49,154 nt of DNA, from the sequence record MW748993.1. One strand, written 5' to 3'. This DNA comes from Pseudomonas phage BUCT566. Each line of letters begins with the position of its first letter. Positions within the stretch are counted from its first letter, which is position 1. The notes beneath the pieces were generated by a model that did not search any database, was not told where the DNA came from, and saw only the letters and a program-made list of their open reading frames with translations. This document shows, piece by piece, positions 2,262 through 44,622 of the stretch. A program made the translations under genes and the position numbers.

Positions 2262-3539
2262 ATGCCCATGCAGGTCAACATCACCACCCAGGTCAACAGC
2301 GCCAGTATTCGACGTGAGACCTACAACGGGCGCGAACACCTGGTTCTGCCGAGCTACACCCTGCCGGCCGGGGTGGTCATGAACGGTGGTCTCTACACCG
2401 CCGAGCAGATCGACAAGCACTACCCAGGGCTGGAGGGAACGCTCGCGCCGCTCGGCCACCCGATGGTCGATGGGAAGTTCGTTTCGGCGTTCTCCCCTGA
2501 AGGGATCAACGTCGGCCATATCGGCGCCTGGAACCGAAACGTGAAGAAGTCCGGCAACCGGGTCTACATGGAGAAGTGGGTCGACGTCGAGTTCGCCAAG
2601 TCCACGGAAGGCGGTCGTGAACTGTTGCAGCGCGTCGAGGCGCTGGAGAAGGGGGAGGACGTTCCCCCGATCCATACCAGCGTTGCAGCATTCCTCAACC
2701 GCATCGAGCCGAACGAAAGCCAGCGCGCCCAGGGCGCGGAGTGGGTCGCCGACATCCAGAGCATGGACCACGACGCGATCCTGCTGCACGAAGTAGGGGC
2801 GGCCACTCCTGAGCAGGGCGTCGGCCTCATGGTGAACGCGGACCAGGCTGTGCCGCTTCAGCCGAACTCCGGCGCCCTGGTTGGCGAGTCCTACCGGGAG
2901 CGTGAGCAGCGCCTGGACCGAGCCGCAAAGGAGCGATTCGCCTCCGGCCCCGACCAGTACGCATGGGTTGCCGACTTCACCGATTCCCAGGCCGTGATCA
3001 GCCTCAACGGCGGTGTGACCGAGGTGTACGGCTACAAGGTCGAGGCAGGGAAGATCGTCTTCGACGAGTCCGGCCATCCCGTTGTCCGGCAAGAGTCCTG
3101 GGTGGCCATGGTGGCCAACAGCATCAAGAACATTTTCACCCATCGTCAGGCTCGGCCTGATCAACCTGAGAAGGAGGGCGACATGCCCCTGACCCCCGAA
3201 GAAAAGGCCGAAATCGTGAAGGAAATCGGCACCAACACCTCCAGCGCCATCAAGGAACTGGCGGACACCATCATCAAGCCCCTGGCCGACAAGGTCGACG
3301 GCCTGGTCGCCAACCACAAGGCCCTGGCCGACACGCTGACCGCCAACCAGCGCGCCGAGGAAGACAGCATGCGCGAAGCGGTCAAGGCCAAGTTCGGCGA
3401 GGTCATCGCCAACAGCCTGGCCGGCGACGCGCTCAAGGAAATGTTCAAGCAGTGCGGCGAGTCCGCCCCGCTGGGCGCCAATGCCGCCACCGACAAAGGC
3501 GGTCTCACCGCCGATATCAACAACCTGCCGAAGGAGTAA
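2262..3539 (+). CDS. prohead scaffold/protease-like protein (DUF2213-like N-domain, coiled-coil C-terminus)
   Basis: AGAGGA RBS; N-terminal ~300 aa globular, C-terminal ~120 aa heptad-rich Lys/Glu/Ala coiled coil; position between MuF and capsid genes. Confidence 0.5.
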   Translation: MPMQVNITTQVNSASIRRETYNGREHLVLPSYTLPAGVVMNGGLYTAEQIDKHYPGLEGTLAPLGHPMVDGKFVSAFSPEGINVGHIGAWNRNVKKSGNRVYMEKWVDVEFAKSTEGGRELLQRVEALEKGEDVPPIHTSVAAFLNRIEPNESQRAQGAEWVADIQSMDHDAILLHEVGAATPEQGVGLMVNADQAVPLQPNSGALVGESYREREQRLDRAAKERFASGPDQYAWVADFTDSQAVISLNGGVTEVYGYKVEAGKIVFDESGHPVVRQESWVAMVANSIKNIFTHRQARPDQPEKEGDMPLTPEEKAEIVKEIGTNTSSAIKELADTIIKPLADKVDGLVANHKALADTLTANQRAEEDSMREAVKAKFGEVIANSLAGDALKEMFKQCGESAPLGANAATDKGGLTADINNLPKE

Positions 3540-20877: not shown

Positions 20878-21987
20878 TCAAGTGTTTACGAGCTTCAGCG
20901 GCCCTCCATGTAGATGCGCTGGATTATCAGCGTGAACAGAACGTGAAATGCGGCTTTCACGGACTTGATCAAGAACCCCAACAGCATCCCTTACCCTGGC
21001 CGGAGCAAGATGGGCATATCGTTCAGTCATCGCGACTGTCGAGTGTCCGAGCAGATCCCGTACATCCGCCAGCGGAACGCCGGCGCTGACCAGCCATGCC
21101 GCGCAGGTGTGGCGCAGGTCGTGAATCGTAAAGTCCGCAATCTTCGCTGCCTGGCAGGCCTGCTTGAAGCCGGCCGAAAGCGATATCACTCGATCACCGT
21201 TAGCGCGCGCAAAGACCCAGGGGCATTCCGGGCTGGTCTCGGACCTGAATGCCATTCGTCGCTTTAGTGCTGCCATCGCCCCTTCGTTGATCGGGATGCT
21301 CCGGCGCTTGCCTGCCTTCGTGTGGGATGCCTCCAAGTAGATCAGTCGATTGGCGAAATCCACTCTGCGCCACTCCAGGCCAAGCATTTCCTCCCGCCGG
21401 CATCCGGTGTTCACCGCTAGGCGGATGAAGTCCTCGAGCATCGGGCCAAACTTCTGGACGCGCGCGGCGCGGCACAGGGACTCGACCTCCGCCCTGGTCA
21501 GCCAACGATCACGTCCCTCGGCCTCGCGCATCTTCCGCCCCTTCACCGGGTTAGGAAGGGCCCACTCCAGTTCTGTGTTGCAGTGGTTGATGGCCGCGGA
21601 CAGTGCGGCGAGTTCTCGGTTGATGGTTGCCGGGGATGCGCCGGCATCCAACCGATGCGCTCCATATCCCCGGATGTCCTGGCCCCCTAGATCGTTGACC
21701 ACGCGTCCGGCAAAATAATCGCGCAGCGGCTTTATGCGGTGCACGGTCGTTTCGTAGCTGCGCTGATGCTGGCGAGCGTGCTGCAGGTACGGAATGATCA
21801 CCTCCTCAAAGGTCCTGGGCGGATTCACGCCCATTTCCTTTTCCTTCCACGCTTTCGCGCGCTCCTGTTGCTCTAGTGCTTTCGCCGCCGAGTAGTCGGC
21901 AGTTCCAGAAGAGCGTCTAACAAGCTTTCCTGTTGCTGATTTGAAAGAGATCCACCAGTAGGCGGAGTCGTTTCTCTTGTACGGCAT
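20878..21987 (-). CDS. int: tyrosine integrase
   Basis: 369 aa; R..HDLRHT..Y C-terminal catalytic motifs; adjacent to tRNA fragment. Confidence 0.85.
   Translation of the reverse strand: MPYKRNDSAYWWISFKSATGKLVRRSSGTADYSAAKALEQQERAKAWKEKEMGVNPPRTFEEVIIPYLQHARQHQRSYETTVHRIKPLRDYFAGRVVNDLGGQDIRGYGAHRLDAGASPATINRELAALSAAINHCNTELEWALPNPVKGRKMREAEGRDRWLTRAEVESLCRAARVQKFGPMLEDFIRLAVNTGCRREEMLGLEWRRVDFANRLIYLEASHTKAGKRRSIPINEGAMAALKRRMAFRSETSPECPWVFARANGDRVISLSAGFKQACQAAKIADFTIHDLRHTCAAWLVSAGVPLADVRDLLGHSTVAMTERYAHLAPARVRDAVGVLDQVRESRISRSVHADNPAHLHGGPLKLVNT
20931..20961. promoter_or_regulatory. attP right arm: arm-type repeats inside int 3' end
   Basis: CGTGAACA (20931-38), ACGTGAAA (20941-48), inverted TTTCACG (20955-61). 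Confidence 0.35.
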
Positions 21988-36471: not shown

Positions 36472-37200
36472 CTATCTGCGAGGGGCTCGCCGTACCGTGG
36501 ACCACCAGAACACGCGCCCAAGCATTGCAATCTGGGCGAACTGCTCGGCGGTCAGTATCTCGTCTGGGTACTCGTCGCTGTTTTCGCTCCTGATGCGGAC
36601 TGAGTTTCCGGGCATCGAATAGAGATATTTGACGCGAAGCATTCCATCCTGATTGAAGGCGTAGATCTCACCGTCGACGATGTGTGTGAAGCTGGTGTCG
36701 AAGCCGATAGCGGCACCATCAAGGATCAACCTCTCCATGGATCTCCCACGAACTCGGGCTACTGCGGCACATTCGGGCTCCACGCCTGCTGACCGAAGCG
36801 TGTCCTTTGAGAACCGAAGCTTTCTGTCAGCGATTTCAACGACTTCCGTCATACCGTTCCCTGCGGCAAGTTCCACCTCAGAGTAGTACGGCAGTTCTAC
36901 TTCGTCATCCTCAAGCGGCGTGTCTGCATCCCAAGCAGAGACTAAGCCGACCAGTTCGCCCTGGTTGTGGTCTGGCCCTACGTCGATGGCTCGCTCTGGT
37001 CCAGACCCAAGCGTTATCCACTCCGCGCGGAAGCCGGTGGCTTTCGCAAGGGCGAAGGCGCTTTCCGCCTTGAGGCTCTTGCTGTCGCCATTAATCCACT
37101 GAGTGACGGCTGAGGGCGCGACGTCGCAAAGCTTTGCGATTTCACTTTTCGTTTTCCCGCTGAGCTGGATGGCTCGCGCGATTCGTTCGTTTCTGTTCAT
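36472..37200 (-). CDS. cI: CI-like repressor (HTH_XRE + S24 LexA-like peptidase domain)
   Basis: N-terminal IAKLCDVAPSAVTQW HTH; C-terminal GRSME (Ser) ... RVK (Lys) autocleavage dyad; divergent from cro. Confidence 0.8.
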   Translation of the reverse strand: MNRNERIARAIQLSGKTKSEIAKLCDVAPSAVTQWINGDSKSLKAESAFALAKATGFRAEWITLGSGPERAIDVGPDHNQGELVGLVSAWDADTPLEDDEVELPYYSEVELAAGNGMTEVVEIADRKLRFSKDTLRSAGVEPECAAVARVRGRSMERLILDGAAIGFDTSFTHIVDGEIYAFNQDGMLRVKYLYSMPGNSVRIRSENSDEYPDEILTAEQFAQIAMLGRVFWWSTVRRAPRR

Positions 37201-37308: not shown

Positions 37309-37482
37309 ATGAACATGAACGAAGCCATCCAGCATTTTGGCTCCAAAAAGAAGCTCGCTGAGGCCCTGGGCATCCGGCCGAGCGCTGTCACTCAGTGGGG
37401 AGAGTCGATCCCCGTAGGCCGCCAGTACCAGCTTCAAGTCATCAGCAAGAACAAGCTGAAGGCTGATCAGAAGGCCGCCTGA
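37309..37482 (+). CDS. cro: Cro-like HTH repressor (57 aa)
   Basis: GAGGA RBS; MNMNEAIQHFGSKKKLAEALGIRPSAVTQWGESIP; below ORF-track size cutoff. Confidence 0.6.
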   Translation: MNMNEAIQHFGSKKKLAEALGIRPSAVTQWGESIPVGRQYQLQVISKNKLKADQKAA

Positions 37483-37483
37483 C

Positions 37484-37792
37484 ATGACAGCCAGCCAATT
37501 AAACCCCGAGCAGGAAGCAAGGGCCCGCAAGAACTACAGCCTCATCGTGCAGCGACTTGCATCGGTTGGAAATGCGCCGGTTGCGCATGCAGTCGGTTGC
37601 GACGAGTCGACGATCAGTCGGATGAAGCCTGAGAAGTTCCTGGAGTTCGCCCGGATCTTGGCTGTGCTGGACCTGAAGGTCGTAGGCAACGAGATGAAGT
37701 GCTTCAACGAGAAGGAGATCGCCGCGATCTTGCACCTGGCGAAGTCGAAGCTCTCTGAGGTCGAGAGCGTCGAGCAGTTGGAGTGGGACTGA
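37484..37792 (+). CDS. cII: CII-like transcriptional activator
   Basis: AHAVGCDESTISRMK...KFLEFARILAVLDLKVV parallels lambda CII AEAVGVDKSQISRWK...KFSMLLAVLEWGVV. Confidence 0.6.
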   Translation: MTASQLNPEQEARARKNYSLIVQRLASVGNAPVAHAVGCDESTISRMKPEKFLEFARILAVLDLKVVGNEMKCFNEKEIAAILHLAKSKLSEVESVEQLEWD

Positions 37793-38055
37793 TGGCTAGA
37801 CGTCCCAAGCACATCAACGCGCTACTGGACCGGGCCCTGGCCGGAATGGGCGGGGAGTCTGGAGAGCCGGCCGCTTCTCGAGAGGAGTACCAACAGCTAG
37901 CCGCTGCTGCGGCTGAAATGGTTGGTTCGAGCTTTACCAAAGACCGGAAACGAAAAACCGCAGGACTGTGTTTGCAGTACCTGCGGCTTTCATTGCGTGC
38001 GCCGGCTGCAACCGGTGAACGCAGGGAACATCACGAACGGACGGACAGAGTATGA
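37792..38055 (+). CDS. hypothetical protein
   Basis: 87 aa, ATGA overlap with cII-like stop. Confidence 0.4.
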   Translation: MARRPKHINALLDRALAGMGGESGEPAASREEYQQLAAAAAEMVGSSFTKDRKRKTAGLCLQYLRLSLRAPAATGERREHHERTDRV

Positions 38056-38846
38056 GCAATATCGTTTCATTACGCAACACCGGGGGGTTTACCCGGATGG
38101 ACAACGAGCTGTATGAAGCCCTGATAGGGGCTGAATTGTCGGGGCGTGAGCTTCGTGTCGCCCTGGCCATCCATCGCCTCACCGTTGGGTACAACGTCGA
38201 GGAGGCGCGCATCGCTGCCTCGGTTATCGCTGACATGTCCGGAATCCACCGAGAGGATGTCTCCCGGGCGATCTGCGAGTTAATCCGCCAGCGAGTGATT
38301 TACCGTACCGGAGGGAGCCGGAGCCCGATGGGTTTCGCACCGGTTTCTGAGTGGAAAATCGACGGAAAGAACACCCACCAGAACAAGCAGAAATCAGTGC
38401 CACAGTGTGGCGTTTCTACCACATCCAATGTGGCGTTCTTACCACACAATAAAGACAGTAAAGACAATTCAGTTCCTTCGGAACTTGTCGACGCTGTCGC
38501 TTCGACCGATCCGGTTTTGGTTCTCGACGGTTCGCCATCGTCTGATCAACCCAAGTCCGAGCGGATCCCGTTCTCTCGGATCCAAGAAATCTACAACCGG
38601 GTTTGCGGTGGCAAGCTGCCCGAGTGCCTGAAGCTCAGCGAAGATCGCAAGCGCAATATCCGCAAGTGTTGGAATCTCCAGTTCGGTGGTGGATACCCGT
38701 TCCGCAAGGGGGAGTTTTGGGAGGGGTATTTCCATGACTGCCTGACAAACCGGCATTGGCTTGGCGAGAACGACCGTAGTTGGCGAGCAGACATTGAGTT
38801 TCTGACCCGCGAGAAGACCGTGTTGAAAGTCCTGGAGGGCGCGTGA
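38052..38846 (+). CDS. replication initiator, lambda O-like
   Basis: N-terminal ELRVALAIHRLTVGYN (phage replication protein O N-domain pattern); iteron-containing AT-rich origin inside coding region. Confidence 0.6.
   Translation: MSNIVSLRNTGGFTRMDNELYEALIGAELSGRELRVALAIHRLTVGYNVEEARIAASVIADMSGIHREDVSRAICELIRQRVIYRTGGSRSPMGFAPVSEWKIDGKNTHQNKQKSVPQCGVSTTSNVAFLPHNKDSKDNSVPSELVDAVASTDPVLVLDGSPSSDQPKSERIPFSRIQEIYNRVCGGKLPECLKLSEDRKRNIRKCWNLQFGGGYPFRKGEFWEGYFHDCLTNRHWLGENDRSWRADIEFLTREKTVLKVLEGA
38406..38470 (+). other. putative ori: iterons + AT-rich tract inside O-like gene
   Basis: TGTGGCGTTTCTACCACA and TGTGGCGTTCTTACCACA (each internally palindromic) then CAATAAAGACAGTAAAGACAATTC. Confidence 0.4.
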
Positions 38847-40243
38847 TGGATGAGCGTCCGCTGGTAGCGATGGAAGCTGAGCAGGGTGTGCTTGGCGCGC
38901 TGATGAAGAAACCGGAACTGTGCGAGGTTGTTGGGGCTTTCCTTTCCCCGACCGACTTCAGCCATGCCGACAACTCGGTGGTCTACAGCCTGATCCTTGC
39001 CTGTCATTCGAAGGCCATCGTGCCTGATCCGCTTTCTCTGGCGGAGGCTAGGTCGGAGCTTCCAAGTGGCGCCTTTACGCTTGCATACGCCAACGATCTA
39101 TGGCGCGAAGTTGCAAGCACAGCTAGCGCCGAAAACTTCGCCAGGATTGTCGTCGAGCGTGCAAAGGCTCGGGAGCTGTACGAAGCGGGCGAACGGATCA
39201 TGAACATCGCCCTTCAGAGAGGGAAAATCCCGGACCAGGTGGCTGAAGCGCAGGGCATCGTTCTTGATCTCAACGCCCAGGACGAGACTCCTGACGTGGT
39301 GACGCTGCGCGAGGCAATGCTCCCAGTCTTCGACGAAATGGAAGTTCGCTGGAAGGGAACTCAGTCGGTCGGACTGAAGTTCAACCTGCCAGACCTCGAT
39401 GCCGTTATCCAGGGATTGCGTCCCGGCAACCTGGCAATCATCGCTGGTCGGCCTGGCACGGGTAAGACGGTTCTCGGGGTGGGGATTGCTGACGAAATTG
39501 CCGTTCGCAACCGGGGAGCCGCGTTGATCTTCTCGCTGGAGATGTCTCAGGCCGAACTTGCAAAACGTTCGCTCGCATCGCTTTCTGGTGTTTCGCAAGC
39601 GGCGATCGACTCAGGCAAAGCGCTGGAGTGCCAGGACTCTATTGCACGCATGACTGCTGCAGTGGACCAAGTCTCCAGGGGTGATGTGCGAATTTGCGAC
39701 AAGGGAGGACTGACTTTCAGTCGGATCTGCTCCATCGCCCGATTCCAGCATCGAGCAAAGCCGCTGAGCCTGATCGTCATCGACTATCTCGGGCTTATCA
39801 CCTCCGATCCGAGTCACCGTCATCAGAACCGAAACCAAGAACTTGGCGCCATAAGCCGAGGGCTAAAGGCTCTCGCCAAAGAGCTTGGCATTCCAATTGT
39901 CGCGCTTGCTCAGCTCAATCGGAGTATCGAAACCCGGGCCGACGCCAAGCCCAAAATGAGCGACCTGCGCGATTCCGGCGAGATCGAACAAGACGCCGAC
40001 GTGATCATCATGGCTCACCGGGATATGAGCACTGAGCGTGGACAGAACGGTATCACCGAGCTTGATGTCGTGAAGTGTCGCCACGCAAAGCCCGGCTTCT
40101 GCCTGTTGCAGTTCCAGGGCGAGTTCGCGCGCTTCGTCAGTTGCGCCCAGGACCGGGAAGAGCAGCAGGAGCAGACGGTTCGTCCGCAGCGTCCTTCCGC
40201 GCGATCAATGGTCGCCGACTTCAAGCCGCGAGGTGCCCAATGA
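38846..40243 (+). CDS. dnaB: replicative DNA helicase (DnaB family)
   Basis: Walker A GRPGTGKT, DnaB N-terminal domain, GGAGGG RBS, start overlaps O stop. Confidence 0.8.
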   Translation: MDERPLVAMEAEQGVLGALMKKPELCEVVGAFLSPTDFSHADNSVVYSLILACHSKAIVPDPLSLAEARSELPSGAFTLAYANDLWREVASTASAENFARIVVERAKARELYEAGERIMNIALQRGKIPDQVAEAQGIVLDLNAQDETPDVVTLREAMLPVFDEMEVRWKGTQSVGLKFNLPDLDAVIQGLRPGNLAIIAGRPGTGKTVLGVGIADEIAVRNRGAALIFSLEMSQAELAKRSLASLSGVSQAAIDSGKALECQDSIARMTAAVDQVSRGDVRICDKGGLTFSRICSIARFQHRAKPLSLIVIDYLGLITSDPSHRHQNRNQELGAISRGLKALAKELGIPIVALAQLNRSIETRADAKPKMSDLRDSGEIEQDADVIIMAHRDMSTERGQNGITELDVVKCRHAKPGFCLLQFQGEFARFVSCAQDREEQQEQTVRPQRPSARSMVADFKPRGAQ

Positions 40244-40359
40244 AACGCTCCTGGACAGTGATCGTAGGCGCCAAGCGCTTCACGATGATCCTGATGGAAG
40301 ACAGCGACCCGGTAGAGGTCGTGAAGAGCATCTGGCCTGAAGGGAGGATCGAGCAGTGA
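40240..40359 (+). CDS. small protein (39 aa)
   Basis: ATGA overlap with dnaB stop, AGGTG RBS. Confidence 0.3.
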   Translation: MKRSWTVIVGAKRFTMILMEDSDPVEVVKSIWPEGRIEQ

Positions 40360-40382
40360 CGCCCGCAAAACAGGAGTCCCTC

Positions 40383-40865
40383 ATGCAGGGACAGACCGGC
40401 ATCGCGAAGAAGGTCTACGAGTGCGTACCGATCTCTGAGCCCTGGCGTTCGTTCCAGGTGCTGACCGCGCTCCGCAACATGACCGGAAGCACGCCGGACG
40501 TTCGGATTGTCCAGGGCTGTCTGCGCGACCTGGTCGATTCCGGACTGATCCGCCGCACTGGTACTGACCACTACCAACGAATCCAAGTCGAGAAAAAGAC
40601 CAAGCCTCAGGAGCCGAAGATGGGCGAGCCCGCGAAGAAGATCGAAACCCAGCCCGAGCCGAAGCGCTCTGCCTCCCCGCTGGAGATGCTGGGCGAACTG
40701 GCAAACGAGCTTGCCGGCATGGCGGAGAACATGAAGCGCCTGTCTGATCGCATCGAGGACGTCGCTCTGGCAGTTGAGCAGGAGCGCGAATCGAACGCCA
40801 AGTCGATGGAAAGCTATCGCCAGCTCAAGGCGCTACTGAAGAGCCTGCAAGGGGAGGGCGAGTGA
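40383..40865 (+). CDS. hypothetical protein
   Basis: 160 aa from MQGQTGIAKK with CAGGAG RBS (GTG 40356 alternative). Confidence 0.45.
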   Translation: MQGQTGIAKKVYECVPISEPWRSFQVLTALRNMTGSTPDVRIVQGCLRDLVDSGLIRRTGTDHYQRIQVEKKTKPQEPKMGEPAKKIETQPEPKRSASPLEMLGELANELAGMAENMKRLSDRIEDVALAVEQERESNAKSMESYRQLKALLKSLQGEGE

Positions 40866-40866
40866 C

Positions 40867-41067
40867 ATGGATATCGTAGACATCGCCAACGACTACGCCG
40901 AGCGCGAACTCGCTGAACGACTGTACTCCCGAGTCAAGTACGTCGGCGAGAGCCTGTACGAATGTGAAGACTGCGGCGAGGAGATTCCTGTGGCGCGGCG
41001 GGCACTCGTTCTTGGGGTTAGGAAGTGCCGTGACTGCGCGGAACTGGCTGAGCGGAGGGCTGTGTGA
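40867..41067 (+). CDS. TraR/DksA-type C4 zinc-finger protein (NinD-like)
   Basis: CEDCGEEIP...RR...C..C pattern, 66 aa. Confidence 0.5.
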   Translation: MDIVDIANDYAERELAERLYSRVKYVGESLYECEDCGEEIPVARRALVLGVRKCRDCAELAERRAV

Positions 41068-41264
41068 TGGATGTTAAAACGCACTATTGCTCGTTCTGCG
41101 GAGAGTCCGAGCACGACCTAAAGGCGCTCATCAAAGGCCCGTCGGCGCTGATCTGTGATGCATGTGTTGCTCTGTGTGTGGAACTGCTCGAGGACAAGGG
41201 CCATTGGCCGCCAGTTCCTTGTGGTTCTGGAGTTTCCGAATCCAATCAGGAGGAGGTCGAGTGA
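41067..41264 (+). CDS. stand-alone ClpX N-terminal zinc-binding-domain (zf-C4_ClpX) protein
   Basis: YCSFCGESEHDLKALIKGPSALICDACVALC vs E. coli ClpX [32 protein letters not shown]. Confidence 0.55.
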   Translation: MDVKTHYCSFCGESEHDLKALIKGPSALICDACVALCVELLEDKGHWPPVPCGSGVSESNQEEVE

Positions 41265-41515
41265 TGCGGAACTATCGCAAGCCAGAGATGTACTCGGACG
41301 CCGATTGGGAAATGGTCCAGGGCTACATGGCCGGCAAGGATGGCCTGCGCGCCGAACGGTCCACGGCAGCCTACATGCATGGTTATCGCAATGGGGTTTC
41401 GGACAGGACTGGTGTTCCTCACGAACGCGCCGAGGTTCTTCGTCGCCGTGCGGAGATGATCCCCGGTATCACTCCCCATAGGGCCTGGTTCCAGGGGAGG
41501 GCGCCACGTGACTGA
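41264..41515 (+). CDS. hypothetical protein
   Basis: 83 aa, CAGGAGGAGG RBS, ATGA overlap. Confidence 0.4.
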   Translation: MRNYRKPEMYSDADWEMVQGYMAGKDGLRAERSTAAYMHGYRNGVSDRTGVPHERAEVLRRRAEMIPGITPHRAWFQGRAPRD

Positions 41516-41783
41516 CTTCTTCGAACTCCTCGACGAGCCTGGCGCTCAGGTTGCGGACGGTCCGCTCCCGGGGAGGAAAGGGTGGGGCAAGGCGCCGTTC
41601 TGTGGAAAAAAGGCCCACCACTTCGAGCTTGTCTTTGCCGACACCATCGGCCCGCATGGGCGAGAAAAGTACTGGGTCGCTCTCTGTGGTGCTGATGCCG
41701 TTACTACCGACAAGGCGCCGATGTTCTCGCCTGGTAGCTGGCAACGGTGCAAGAACTGTGAGCGGAGGGAAAGCCATGGCTGA
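41508..41783 (+). CDS. Cys-rich hypothetical protein
   Basis: GTG start after GGGGAGGG; CG..H, C..C motifs. Confidence 0.4.
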   Translation: MTDFFELLDEPGAQVADGPLPGRKGWGKAPFCGKKAHHFELVFADTIGPHGREKYWVALCGADAVTTDKAPMFSPGSWQRCKNCERRESHG

Positions 41784-42246
41784 TCGAATCGCCGTAAACA
41801 GCGCCGCGCGCCTGTCTGAGGCGATCACCCGCCTGACCGCAATGTACCGCGAGAAAAAGTACGTCGTGGTTTCCCTTCGCCCCGGGAAGGACAGAACACT
41901 GGACCAGAACGCCCTATGGTTCGCGCTCTACCAGCGAATTGCCCAGATGACCGGAATGGATGACGTAGAGGACGCTCGCCGGTACTGCAAGCTTCATTTC
42001 GGCGTGCCGATCATGCGCGCAGCCGATGCCGATTTCCGCGATGGCTGGAACCGCCTGTTCTTGCACCTGGACTATGAAACCAAGATCCGCCTGATGGGCG
42101 CCTGCGCCATGTTCGGACCGGATGGCTTCCCCGTGACCAGGCTGTTCAATCGGGCCCAGGGCATCGCCTACACCGACGCCATCGTTGCCGAATTCTCGGA
42201 GAAGGGCGTTTTCTTCAACGATCTGCTTAGCGAGGACGCAGCATGA
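41776..42246 (+). CDS. ninB: NinB-like recombination protein
   Basis: MADRIAVNSAARL...LDQNALWFALYQRIA resembles NinB N-terminal conserved region; GGAGGG RBS. Confidence 0.6.
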   Translation: MADRIAVNSAARLSEAITRLTAMYREKKYVVVSLRPGKDRTLDQNALWFALYQRIAQMTGMDDVEDARRYCKLHFGVPIMRAADADFRDGWNRLFLHLDYETKIRLMGACAMFGPDGFPVTRLFNRAQGIAYTDAIVAEFSEKGVFFNDLLSEDAA

Positions 42247-42661: not shown

Positions 42662-42891
42662 GCCGCAGCTTGTTCTTCCGCGCCATGCGGAGAGTTCCTG
42701 TTCGGCCAAGAGCGCTCATTGTCCTGATGATCATGATCGCCTTTGGCTGGGTGCCTCTTGTGGTGGCCGTATGCGAGGCAGTCGGCGAAGGGGTTCGGGC
42801 CTGCCGGCAGGAATCGTCCAGGCTCTACGGCGACTTCAGCAAAGCTTTCACCGACTGCTGGAAAGCCTTGGTTTCGGGGGAGCCTCAATGA
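42658..42891 (+). CDS. small membrane protein (77 aa)
   Basis: ATGA-coupled both sides; LIVLMIMIAFGWVPLVVAV. Confidence 0.4.
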   Translation: MSRSLFFRAMRRVPVRPRALIVLMIMIAFGWVPLVVAVCEAVGEGVRACRQESSRLYGDFSKAFTDCWKALVSGEPQ

Positions 42892-43532
42892 GCCTATCCG
42901 CCAGCCAGCCCAAACCGAAGAAATGCCAGAACCCTGCATGCGGCCAGGAGTTCACCCCTCGCTTCAGCAGCACGCAAAAGGTCTGCTCCCCGGCCTGCGC
43001 CCTGGCCATCAAGGACAAGAACGCCAAGCCGGCGCGGAAGGCCATCGCTGACCGCGAGCGGAAGGAGATCAAGGTTCGGAAGGAGCGGTTGAAGACGCAC
43101 AGCGACCACATCAAAGATGCAGAGAAAGCCGTTCGGGACTACCGGCGCACCTACGAACTTTCCATCGGCAGCGGCTGCATAAGCTGCGGCAAGTCTCAGG
43201 CCGAGGCACTGGCCGAACAAGGCTGGAAGACTGGAGGTGCATTCGACGCAGGGCATTTCCTCGGCAAGGGGGCAAGGCCCGAGCACCGCCTGGAGCCATC
43301 CAACATATGGCTTCAATGCAAGGCATGTAACGCCGGCTCCAGCAAGTACGCCAGGAAGGGGCTTACCGTTTCCCAGGGCTTCCGTGAGGGCTTGATCGAA
43401 CGCATCGGCCTGGAAGCTGTAGAGGCTCTGGAAGCCGATCACCGTCCCCGCAAGTACACCAACGACGAACTGAAGGCGATCACCGCCGAGTACCGCGCCA
43501 AGCTGCGCGAACTGAAGAGGGCAACGGCATGA
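42888..43532 (+). CDS. ninG: NinG/Rap-like recombination endonuclease
   Basis: 214 aa from [22 protein letters not shown]...CSPAC; multiple Cys pairs; GGGGGAG RBS; ORF-track N-terminal extension spurious. Confidence 0.6.
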
Positions 43533-44467: not shown

Positions 44468-44514
44468 TTTCCCATCCTGCTGATCTTGCGCGTTTGAGGA
44501 TTGGCGGCTTTGAG

Positions 44515-44543
44515 GCCCTGGCATCTGCCGGGGCTTTTTGTTT
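44515..44543 (+). terminator. rho-independent terminator (tR'-like)
   Basis: GCCCTGGCA-tc-TGCCGGGGC followed by TTTTTGTTT. Confidence 0.6.
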
Positions 44544-44546
44544 CGA

Positions 44547-44622
44547 CGCAGGGTGGAGAAGTGGTCATCTCGCCGGGCCCATAACCCGGAGAACGCTGGT
44601 TCGAATCCAGCCCTTGCTACCA
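44547..44622 (+). tRNA. tRNA, anticodon CAU, initiator (fMet)-like
   Basis: 76-nt cloverleaf: 7-bp acceptor with 1:72 C.U mismatch, GAGA/TCTC D-stem with GG in loop, CCGGG/CCCGG anticodon stem with 3 G-C pairs, loop CCCAUAA, TTCGAAT T-loop, discriminator A + CCA; closely parallels E. coli tRNA-fMet. Confidence 0.65.

What the first reader, a model, noticed from the sequence alone, without database searches (positions are those of the whole stretch)
41067..41264. Phage-encoded free ClpX zinc-binding domain
The 65-aa protein reproduces the ClpX N-domain C4 zinc-finger pattern (YCSFCG.S.H....LI.GPS..IC..CV.LC) with no AAA+ module. The ClpX N-domain dimerises and docks adaptors/substrates (SspB, lambda O, MuA). 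A stand-alone copy could poison host ClpX N-domain function and stabilise the phage O-like initiator encoded 3 kb upstream.
Basis: partly seen in the sequence, partly recalled or inferred. Interest (0 to 1): 0.65.

Follow-up and report, generated by a model that had tools for sequence, protein, structure and literature searches.

The report
Phage-encoded free ClpX zinc-binding domain
A Pseudomonas aeruginosa temperate phage carries a conserved 65-residue gene that is only the substrate/adaptor-docking zinc domain of the host unfoldase ClpX, with no motor, so it most plausibly interferes with host ClpXP proteolysis during lytic growth, though this is untested.

Summary
ORF 41067-41264 (+) encodes a 65-aa protein that matches Pfam zf-C4_ClpX at 53.4 bits (cut-off 27). 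It is 53% identical, without gaps, to the E. coli ClpX N-domain, and its predicted core superposes on the ZBD crystal structures. There is no AAA+ module, so the database names "protease" and "Clp ATP-binding subunit" are wrong.

The gene is real:
- dN/dS is 0.07-0.15 over the domain.
- It has a good Shine-Dalgarno sequence and TGATG overlaps at both ends.
- It is an exact 198-bp presence/absence cassette in the nin-like early-right operon of D3/JBD44/PSA04-type phages.

A homologue also sits in the virulent Pakpunavirus EM. Other AAA+-less ZBD proteins occur in many phage lineages, including a host-like one in P2-like coliphages.

Isolated ZBD added in trans does inhibit adaptor-dependent ClpXP degradation in vitro. 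However, the gene travels with at least four different replication modules, so no specific link to the O initiator is seen. The family also differs from ClpX at five near-invariant positions and carries its own conserved tail (GHW...C-S...acidic).

Best reading, at about 0.4 confidence: a trans-acting decoy for ligands of the ClpX N-domain. The family is already catalogued, but I found no published functional study.

The parts
41067..41264 (+). Gene for the 65-aa stand-alone ClpX-type zinc-binding domain protein (stop TGA at 41262-41264)
   Evidence: ORF and translation. PF06689 at 53.4 bits against a cut-off of 27. phrog_12435 full length, E 1.6e-43. dN/dS 0.18-0.25 overall between the two allele groups.
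41054..41059 (+). Shine-Dalgarno-like GGAGGG, 7 nt upstream of the ATG, inside the end of the upstream gene
   Evidence: Read directly from the sequence. Invariant in the alignment with PP9W2, phPA-G and Haboob.
41076..41198 (+). Zinc-binding domain core (residues 4-44). Cys ligands are C8 (41088-41090), C11 (41097-41099), C30 (41154-41156) and C33 (41163-41165), spaced C-x2-C-x18-C-x2-C. Pocket residues F10 and L40 correspond to E. coli F16 and I46.
   Evidence: Alignments to ClpX ZBD. pLDDT about 90. Superposition on 2ds5/2ds8. dN/dS 0.07-0.15.
41199..41261 (+). C-terminal tail (residues 45-65) GHWPPVPCGSGVSESNQEEVE. Predicted disordered and acidic, with conserved G-H/Q-W, a Cys followed by Gly/Ser/Thr then Ser, and an acidic end.
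   Evidence: Low pLDDT. dN/dS ~0.55 but with invariant GHWPP, C52 and EEVE. The motif is shared with phage EM and with L057/L058. No ClpX has it.
41064..41069 (+). 5' junction GTGATG: stop TGA of the upstream TraR-like gene overlaps the ATG of the ZBD gene by one base (translational coupling)
   Evidence: Sequence. The same junction is kept in relatives, and in Haboob where the ZBD gene is absent.
41259..41266 (+). 3' junction GAGTGATG: stop of the ZBD gene overlaps the ATG of the downstream gene by one base
   Evidence: Sequence and alignment.
40867..41067 (+). Upstream neighbour: TraR/DksA-family C4 zinc-finger protein (66 aa)
   Evidence: PF01258 at 35.9 bits. TIGR02419 at 62.3 bits against a cut-off of 59.7. 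phrog_54.
41264..41515 (+). Downstream neighbour: 83-aa protein of unknown function (phrog_12505)
   Evidence: phrog_12505, E 9.2e-57. No Pfam, NCBIfam or PADLOC match. It directly abuts the TraR-like gene in phages lacking the ZBD gene.
40356..40865 (+). First gene of the conserved four-gene block (phrog_4405, unknown function; the true start may be the ATG near 40383)
   Evidence: phrog_4405, E 3.4e-82. Co-occurs with the ZBD gene in 26 of the 27 temperate carrier loci in the table.
38052..38846 (+). Context only; not shown to be functionally linked.
   Evidence: PF04492 at 68.1 bits and phrog_5810. Replaced by other replication modules in many carriers of the ZBD gene.

Best explanation
The gene encodes a genuine, selectively maintained, zinc-ribbon (treble-clef) domain of the ClpX N-terminal type that stands alone.

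Expression (inferred). It is made during lytic development as part of the early-right, nin-like operon, and is translationally coupled to its neighbours.

Mechanism (inferred). It keeps the ClpX ZBD fold and the F16/I46-type hydrophobic pocket but has no AAA+ motor and no ClpP-docking loop. It therefore most likely acts in trans on the host ClpXP system as a decoy. It would bind peptide motifs of adaptors and N-domain-dependent substrates that normally dock on the ClpX N-domain, and so keep them away from the protease.

Expected effect (inferred). The block would be selective. Adaptor- or N-domain-dependent degradation would be dampened. Substrates recognised directly by the ClpX pore, such as ssrA-like C-terminal degrons, would still be degraded.

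Beneficiaries (speculative). These could be labile phage proteins, possibly including an O-type initiator where one is present. The block could also disarm host responses that need N-domain-dependent proteolysis.

Shown: domain identity, absence of a motor, purifying selection, cassette behaviour, and distribution.
Not shown: zinc binding, oligomeric state, partners, and any effect on proteolysis.
For: Identity and fold.
No AAA+ module.
Real gene under purifying selection: dN/dS 0.07-0.15 in the domain at dS ~0.5-0.6.
Operon setting: Shine-Dalgarno sequence and TGATG coupling, and no promoter-like site between 36.4 and 45 kb. This is consistent with transcription from the early-right promoter next to cro, cII, O and DnaB.
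Pocket residues: those equivalent to E. coli F16 and I46 are retained.
In vitro precedent: isolated ZBD in trans inhibits RssB/sigma-S degradation (PMC7226468), and the ZBD is required for lambda O degradation (PMC7804408).
Use in lytic infection: a homologue lies among the small early genes of the virulent phage EM.
Recurrence: among the best 80 of 378 IMG/VR matches, 33 of 55 complete non-family ORFs are not ClpX-length (55-330 aa). P2-like coliphages carry a 110-aa protein whose ZBD core is ~83% identical to the E. coli ClpX ZBD.
Benefit of lowering ClpX: clpX knockdown raised phage fitness in E. coli, and truncated viral clpX copies were proposed to act as dominant negatives (bioRxiv 10.1101/2024.04.20.590424).
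Charge: the protein is strongly acidic by my own count from the sequence (12 D/E against 4 K/R). This argues against nucleic-acid binding.
Against: There is no experimental datum for this or any other natural stand-alone ZBD protein. Ten literature searches found none.

The family is only ~50% identical to ClpX ZBDs. It differs at five positions that are near-invariant in 15 distinct ZBDs from long ORFs and in 24 other free viral ZBDs: K19E, A29K/V, F/Y34L, E38A/K and D41A. Its ligand specificity may therefore have changed.

It has a conserved tail motif that ClpX lacks, and the decoy model does not explain it.

In vitro inhibition by free ZBD needed micromolar excess. Whether the phage reaches such levels is unknown.

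Close relatives such as Haboob and D14C lack the gene, so it is dispensable.

ClpX can be needed by temperate phages to finish induction (S. aureus, PMC10584840).

Some ClpXP-dependent defences use pore-recognised degrons that a ZBD decoy would not block (CmdTAC).
Confidence: 0.4

Rival explanations
1. Poison subunit. The phage ZBD does not sequester ligands. Instead it pairs with the N-domain of host ClpX. ZBDs work as dimers, three per hexamer. The resulting mixed dimers would be defective, or the acidic tail would be displayed at the mouth of the unfoldase.
For: The ClpX ZBD is a dimerisation domain, and isolated ZBD dimerises readily (PMC7226468; ZBD2 nomenclature in PMC7804408). The hydrophobic core residues are conserved. 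A dominant-negative effect of truncated viral clpX copies has been proposed.
Against: The protein is only ~50% identical to the host-type ZBD and is changed at five ClpX-invariant positions. ZBD dimers in ClpX are formed between tethered neighbours, which should out-compete a free monomer (inference). No heterodimer model could be computed with the tools available.
Confidence: 0.15
2. Re-purposed peptide-binding module. The ZBD fold is used as a generic small protein-binding domain. Together with the conserved GHW...C-S...acidic tail, it binds some other host or phage protein, acting as an inhibitor, an adaptor or an anti-adaptor, with no direct competition for ClpX clients.
For: The surface is remodelled at five ClpX-invariant positions. 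The tail motif is conserved from temperate phages to the virulent EM and to L057/L058. PF06689 domains occur in thousands of non-ClpX proteins, including tandem arrays of 2-6 copies, so the domain has uses outside ClpX. The gene sits in a conserved four-gene block with two proteins of unknown function.
Against: The F16/I46 pocket is kept. Host-like ZBD-only proteins in other phages point to ClpX-related biology for the class. The neighbours are not required: EM has the gene without them, and Haboob has them without the gene.
Confidence: 0.25
3. One reading: the protein exists to stabilise the phage's own O-like initiator against ClpXP.
For: lambda O is a ClpXP substrate that needs the ZBD. The O-like gene lies in the same operon 2.2-3 kb upstream. 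Its N-terminus (MSNIVSLRN) loosely resembles that of lambda O as I recall it (own knowledge, not tested).
Against: The gene is found with at least four unrelated or distant replication modules and in a virulent myovirus. Phages with a 100%-identical DnaB over the part of that gene held (Haboob; its O gene lies outside the stretch fetched) do without it.
Confidence: 0.1
4. Non-functional remnant of a captured clpX 5' end, or a chance ORF in GC-rich DNA.
For: Some copies are decayed: frameshifted in PACT201, and truncated or fused in variants P0004, P0006 and P0024. The gene is dispensable.
Against: dN/dS is 0.07-0.15 over the domain at dS ~0.5-0.6. Length is exactly conserved in two allele groups across more than 25 loci. 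The gene has its own Shine-Dalgarno sequence and coupled start and stop. A divergent homologue is retained in an unrelated virulent phage.
Confidence: 0.03

Closest known systems
[quoted passage not shown]
   Same: Same C-x2-C-x18-C-x2-C zinc ribbon. 53% identity over 40 residues without gaps. Same predicted fold (0.9-1.0 A). F16 and I46-type pocket residues and the hydrophobic core are conserved.
   Different: Not attached to an AAA+ motor. Changed at K19E, A29K, F/Y34L, E38A and D41A, which are near-invariant in ClpX. More acidic. Carries its own conserved C-terminal tail in place of the ClpX linker.
Recombinant isolated ZBD used as a competitor in ClpXP assays (e.g. PMC7226468)
   Same: A motor-less ZBD acting in trans, which inhibits adaptor-dependent degradation by titrating the adaptor or substrate. 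This is the mechanism proposed here.
   Different: That is a laboratory fragment of the host protein itself. This is a natural, diverged, virus-encoded gene whose activity is untested.
Other phage ZBD-only proteins: phrog_6797 (P2-like coliphages P88 and PhiR44_2, 110 aa), phrog_5259, phrog_20296
   Same: Phage proteins with one ClpX-type ZBD and no AAA+ module. Function unknown.
   Different: phrog_6797 has a ~60-aa N-terminal extension and a host-like ZBD (core ~83% identical to E. coli ClpX, with K19, A29, Y34, E38 and D41 all kept). It is therefore an independent and more recent capture. The window's family (phrog_12435) has an N-terminal ZBD, a C-terminal tail and a remodelled surface.
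Small-protein modulators of host AAA+ proteolysis: anti-adaptors IraD/IraM/IraP; phage inhibitors of Lon (T4 PinA, T7 Gp4.5; own knowledge)
   Same: Small proteins that stabilise selected substrates by blocking delivery to, or the activity of, an AAA+ protease. The Ira proteins block RssB delivery to the ClpX ZBD.
   Different: No sequence or fold relationship. Those bind the adaptor or the protease by unrelated folds, whereas this would work by mimicking the protease's own docking domain. The analogy is functional only and was not tested.
Truncated viral copies of host genes proposed to act as dominant negatives (PHAGEPACK preprint, bioRxiv 10.1101/2024.04.20.590424)
   Same: The same general idea, with clpX named explicitly as a case. 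clpX knockdown increased phage fitness.
   Different: The text describes viral clpX homologues that lack the Zn-binding domain. The ZBD-only class is the reverse truncation. No experiment on either is reported there.

Membership tests
Pfam PF06689 zf-C4_ClpX (ClpX-type zinc-binding domain) | Profile match above the curated gathering score | tested here: met
   53.4 bits against a cut-off of 27, E 2.4e-14, profile positions 2-38 of 39.
Pfam PF06689 zf-C4_ClpX (ClpX-type zinc-binding domain) | Four Cys ligands with C-x2-C-x18-C-x2-C spacing | tested here: met
   C8, C11, C30 and C33. These columns are invariant in alignments A1 and A2 and in all 39 comparison ZBDs.
Pfam PF06689 zf-C4_ClpX (ClpX-type zinc-binding domain) | Treble-clef fold (beta-hairpin plus C-terminal helix) superposable on solved ZBD structures | tested here: met
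   The AF2 core (pLDDT about 90) superposes on 2ds5/2ds6/2ds8 at rmsd 0.9-1.0 A with target-normalised TM 0.85-0.91. This is a predicted model, not an experimental structure.
Pfam PF06689 zf-C4_ClpX (ClpX-type zinc-binding domain) | Binds one Zn(II) and forms a stable dimer | not testable with these tools
   Needs metal analysis and SEC-MALS or NMR. Only single-chain prediction was available.
Pfam PF06689 zf-C4_ClpX (ClpX-type zinc-binding domain) | Hydrophobic pocket (E. coli F16, I46) that docks lambda O, SspB-XB, RssB and trigger factor | tested here: inconclusive
   F16 is kept as F10 and I46 as L40. Neighbouring ClpX-invariant positions A29 and F/Y34 are changed to K and L. Residue-level contact maps (Park 2007; Thibault 2006) were not available in the library.
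ClpX (AAA+ unfoldase, NCBIfam TIGR00382 / NF003745) | AAA+ module with Walker motifs, pore loops and the ClpP-docking IGF loop; full-length equivalog score | tested here: not met
   The protein is 65 aa. It scores 39.1 and 36.3 bits against cut-offs of 359 and 370.75, matching only the first ~45 profile positions. GenBank and PHROG names such as 'ATP-dependent Clp protease ATP-binding subunit' and 'protease' are therefore over-annotations.
PHROG phrog_12435 | Full-length profile match | tested here: met
   E 1.6e-43 over 1-65 of 65. The EM homologue and L057 also fall in this family.
Known anti-phage defence proteins (PADLOC-DB) | Match to any defence-system model | tested here: not met
   No match for the ZBD protein or its three neighbours.
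Natural inhibitors or anti-adaptors of AAA+ proteases (functional class) | Demonstrated stabilisation of a protease substrate by binding the adaptor, the substrate or the protease | not testable with these tools
   Requires degradation assays and binding experiments. The only support is the precedent of recombinant ZBD in trans.

The most novel reading that the evidence does not exclude
Phages of several unrelated lineages (D3/JBD44-type temperate and Pakpuna-type virulent Pseudomonas phages, P2-like coliphages, and many uncultivated viruses) have independently turned the docking domain of ClpX into a free cytoplasmic decoy. This would be a natural domain-mimic inhibitor that switches off only adaptor- or N-domain-dependent ClpXP proteolysis and leaves pore-recognised degradation intact. 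It would protect labile phage proteins and/or blunt host responses that need that branch. In the Pseudomonas family, the conserved GHW...C-S...acidic tail would add a second, still unknown contact.
Probability: 0.3. Interest if true: 0.65.

Novelty: new variant of a known kind. Interest (0 to 1): 0.45.

Why it matters
ClpXP controls the stability of replication initiators, transposases, repressor fragments, antitoxins and stress regulators.

If this protein works as proposed, it would be a compact virus-made tool that selectively disables the adaptor/N-domain branch of ClpXP. That would add a new mechanism, mimicry of the protease's own docking domain, to the few known phage strategies against host AAA+ proteases. 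It would also provide a 65-residue reagent for dissecting N-domain-dependent proteolysis in P. aeruginosa. It could explain why ZBD-only genes recur in many phage groups.

If the function is something else, the family shows that the ZBD fold has a life outside ClpX. That is also suggested by the thousands of non-ClpX ZBD proteins, including tandem arrays.

The hypothesis is cheap to test, because natural isogenic-like phages with and without the 198-bp cassette already exist.

Tried and rejected
1. The word-indexed homology search returned only seven near-identical P. aeruginosa proteins. It was too insensitive for a 65-aa query. It was replaced by the exhaustive representative search and by IMG/VR scans.

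2. Residue-level maps of the ZBD-SspB and lambda O interfaces were not available. Thibault 2006 and Wojtyra 2003 are not held. Park 2007 turned up only as a citation in other papers' reference lists and was not requested by id. The CLIPPER paper and a recent structural review give no contact residues. I therefore used conservation across ClpX ZBDs as a proxy.

3. The 'protease' / 'Clp ATP-binding subunit' annotation is rejected, because there is no AAA+ module.

4. A functional pairing with the TraR-like or phrog_12505 neighbours is rejected as obligatory. Haboob and D14C keep both neighbours without the ZBD gene, and EM has the ZBD gene without them.

5. An own promoter, which would allow moron-like expression in the lysogen, was not found. 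There is no sigma-70-like site between 36.4 and 45 kb. The scan is crude and covers only the sigma-70 consensus.

6. Defence-system membership: none.

7. A second metal site in the tail (His46/Cys52) was considered. It is rejected because His46 is Gln in L057/L058 and no four-ligand set is conserved.

8. Recent capture from the host is rejected for this family, since identity to ClpX ZBDs is ~50%. It is plausible for the P2-like family.

9. Ten literature searches found no study of any stand-alone ZBD protein.

Full report
**What is there**

The window is the genome of a temperate, lambdoid Pseudomonas aeruginosa phage of the D3/JBD44/PSA04 type. A megablast of 36-44 kb hits 89 Pseudomonas phage records, the best being PSA04 and Haboob at 96%.

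Landmarks:
- portal at 2-1372
- integrase at 20878-21987 (-)
- S24-type cI repressor at 36472-37200 (-)
- cro-like gene at 37309-37482
- cII-like gene at 37484-37792
- O-like initiator at 38052-38846
- DnaB-like helicase at 38843-40243
- NinB at 41776-42246
- NinG at 42888-43532
- tRNA-Met at 44547-44622

The finding lies in the rightward early operon, between the replication genes and ninB. ATG 41067 to TGA 41264 encodes the 65-aa protein MDVKTHYCSFCGESEHDLKALIKGPSALICDACVALCVELLEDKGHWPPVPCGSGVSESNQEEVE. A GGAGGG lies 7 nt upstream. Both gene ends overlap their neighbours by one base (TGATG), which is the usual sign of translational coupling.

**Is it a ClpX zinc-binding domain?**

Yes.
- Pfam zf-C4_ClpX scores 53.4 bits against a cut-off of 27 (E 2.4e-14).
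- phmmer against all PDB sequences returns only ClpX chains (2ds5, 1ovx and others, E ~1e-11).
- BLASTP to E. coli ClpX gives 21/40 identities with no gap.
- An AlphaFold2 model has pLDDT of about 90 over residues ~6-44 and a low-confidence tail.
- The model core superposes on the ZBD crystal structures at 0.9-1.0 A. Nothing else in the PDB matches below E 0.5.
- The four Cys ligands have the canonical C-x2-C-x18-C-x2-C spacing.

There is no AAA+ module. The NCBIfam ClpX models reach one tenth of their cut-off and match only their first ~45 positions. The names "protease" (PHROG 12435), "Clp protease ClpX" and "ATP-dependent Clp protease ATP-binding subunit" given in databases and GenBank records are therefore over-annotations.

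**Is it a real gene?**

Yes.
- Two allele groups exist: window/PSA04, and phi1/phPA-G/PP9W2 at 80-82% protein identity.
- Between them dS is ~0.5-0.6. dN/dS is 0.07-0.15 over residues 1-44 and ~0.55 over the tail. GHWPP, Cys52 and the terminal EEVE are invariant.
- An IMG/VR scan found 23 further loci, all exactly 65 codons long.
- A few copies are decayed: frameshifted in PACT201, and truncated or fused in variants P0004, P0006 and P0024.

**Context and distribution**

In the 27 temperate phage and prophage loci that carry the gene in the table, it sits in the block phrog_4405 / TraR-DksA-like / ZBD / phrog_12505. The TraR-like gene is truncated in four of these loci, and the phrog_4405 gene is not found in one.

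That block is joined to at least four different replication modules:
- O 95-99% with DnaB 98-99%
- O ~40% with DnaB 98-99%
- O ~40% with DnaB ~37%
- no O match, with either a ~35% DnaB or a primase/helicase-type replicase

Haboob and D14C have the TraR-like gene directly abutting phrog_12505. The alignment shows a clean 198-bp presence/absence with the GTGATG junction preserved. The gene is therefore a dispensable single-gene cassette.

A 59-aa homologue (56-59% identity) lies among the small early genes of the virulent Pakpunavirus EM. It is again start/stop-overlapped with unrelated neighbours. Together these facts argue that the gene serves lytic infection in general. They argue against a function tied to one initiator protein.

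**How common are motor-less ZBDs?**

Very common.
- The exhaustive representative search found 7,625 cluster representatives at E <= 1e-3. The top of the list is dominated by 90-300-aa proteins with two to six tandem ZBDs and no AAA+ module.
- A profile-guided IMG/VR scan found 378 viral matches.
- Of the best 80, 23 belong to this family.
- Among the other 55 complete ORFs, 22 are ClpX-length (409-473 aa). Several of these are probably host clpX at prophage edges.
- The remaining 33 are 55-330 aa by longest-ORF calling, with the ZBD at either end.
- P2-like coliphages (P88, PhiR44_2) carry a 110-aa protein (phrog_6797) whose ZBD core is ~83% identical to the E. coli ClpX ZBD. This is evidently a separate and more recent capture.
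- Jumbo phages carry full-length ClpX.

**How this family differs from ClpX**

I tabulated 15 distinct ZBDs from long ORFs and 24 other free viral ZBDs. The Pseudomonas family keeps the core and the pocket residues F16 and I46 (as Leu).

It differs at five near-invariant positions (E. coli mature numbering):

| Position | Change in this family |
|---|---|
| K19 | E |
| A29 | K/V |
| F/Y34 | L |
| E38 | A/K |
| D41 | A |

In EM and in the 89-aa proteins L057/L058, K19E is accompanied by E38K. This looks like a swapped salt bridge, but that is an inference.

After the helix the family has its own motif: G-H/Q-W, then a Cys followed by Gly/Ser/Thr and Ser, then an acidic end. It is shared by the window, allele group 2, EM and L057/L058, and no ClpX has it. 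The protein is strongly acidic by my count (12 D/E against 4 K/R), which makes nucleic-acid binding unlikely.

**Mechanism**

Established knowledge:
- The ClpX N-domain is the docking site for adaptors (SspB, RssB) and for N-domain-dependent substrates such as lambda O. It is dispensable for ssrA-type substrates.
- F16 and I46 line the hydrophobic pocket that overlaps the lambda O, SspB, RssB and trigger-factor sites.
- Purified ZBD added in trans at 5-20 uM inhibits RssB-dependent sigma-S degradation (PMC7226468).

A virus-made free ZBD that keeps this pocket is therefore most simply a decoy that titrates such ligands. It would selectively dampen the adaptor/N-domain branch of ClpXP.

Selectivity would matter for a temperate phage. 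In S. aureus, ClpX is needed to remove the CI N-terminal fragment and complete induction (PMC10584840). ClpXP also drives some abortive-infection systems, but through pore-recognised degrons that a decoy would not block.

A CRISPRi screen found that lowering clpX can raise phage fitness in E. coli. Its authors proposed that truncated viral clpX copies act as dominant negatives. They describe copies lacking the ZBD, which is the reverse truncation from the one here.

I put the decoy reading at about 0.4. The alternatives:

| Reading | Confidence |
|---|---|
| Re-purposed binding module with a different partner | 0.25 |
| Poison subunit through heterodimerisation with ClpX | 0.15 |
| O-specific stabiliser (a special case of the decoy reading) | 0.1 |
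| Non-functional remnant | 0.03 |

**Verdict**

The sequence family is already catalogued (Pfam, PHROG, NCBI names). No functional study of any natural stand-alone ZBD protein was found in ten full-text searches.

If the decoy mechanism holds, it is a new variant among phage strategies against host AAA+ proteases. Natural phages with and without the 198-bp cassette make it straightforward to test.

Noticed in passing
window 40867-41067 (+): The gene immediately upstream encodes a TraR/DksA-family C4 zinc-finger protein (TIGR02419 at 62.3 bits against a cut-off of 59.7). Members of this family bind the RNA polymerase secondary channel (own knowledge). Two small zinc proteins likely to act on host machinery would then sit side by side. 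A TraR-like gene of this type is present in 27 phage records, far more than carry the ZBD gene.
   Followed up: partly
window 40356-41515 (+): The block phrog_4405 / TraR-like / ZBD / phrog_12505 is conserved as a unit in nearly all temperate carriers, while the replication module to its left is swapped among at least four types. phrog_4405 and phrog_12505 have no Pfam, NCBIfam or PADLOC match.
   Followed up: partly
L003:2991-3338 (phage PACT201); proteins P0004, P0006, P0024: Decayed copies. PACT201 has a frameshifted ZBD gene annotated as a 115-aa ORF. P0024 (129 aa) is a frameshift fusion running into the downstream region, read out of frame. P0006 (58 aa) fuses ZBD residues 1-43 to the C-terminus of the window's ORF 41508-41783, so the intervening gene is deleted. 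P0004 has a replaced N-terminus that lacks the first Cys pair.
   Followed up: partly
proteins P0008, P0016, P0018, P0028, P0033, P0046: Bacterial or metagenomic proteins of ~90-300 aa that consist of two to six tandem ClpX-type ZBDs with no AAA+ module. They dominate the top of the exhaustive search. I found no literature on them. They could be natural multivalent binders of ClpX-adaptor-type motifs.
   Followed up: no
L006:2321-2653 (Escherichia phage PhiR44_2; also P88, and IMG/VR loci L089, L090, L102, L112): P2-like coliphages carry a 110-aa protein (phrog_6797) downstream of gpA. It has a ~60-aa N-terminal extension and a ZBD core ~83% identical to the E. coli ClpX ZBD. In RefSeq it is annotated as 'carboxylate--amine ligase'. 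This is an independent, host-like capture of the same domain.
   Followed up: partly
L057 and L058 (IMG/VR), match at 3001-3126: 89-aa proteins 60% identical to the window protein. They are the closest relatives outside Pseudomonas phages. They share GES (K19E), E38K and a G-Q-W-P motif after the helix, followed by a longer C-terminal extension.
   Followed up: no
L066 and L071 (IMG/VR 'viral' contigs): These contigs contain a complete ClpX gene whose ZBD matches, or differs by only one or two residues from, that of the 426-aa ClpX in PDB 9ndj. This is most likely host clpX included by an over-extended prophage boundary. Counts of 'viral ClpX' from IMG/VR are therefore inflated.
   Followed up: no
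window 44512-44622 (+): A strong terminator-like hairpin (11 pairs, followed by a T-rich run) at 44512-44537 ends 10 bases upstream of a phage tRNA-Met (CAU) at 44547-44622, between the nin-like region and the late genes.
   Followed up: no
window 38052-38080 (+): The N-terminus of the O-like initiator (MSNIVSLRN) loosely resembles the lambda O N-terminus (MTNTAKILN, from memory), which carries its ClpX recognition signal. The basic residue of that motif is absent here. Not tested.
   Followed up: no
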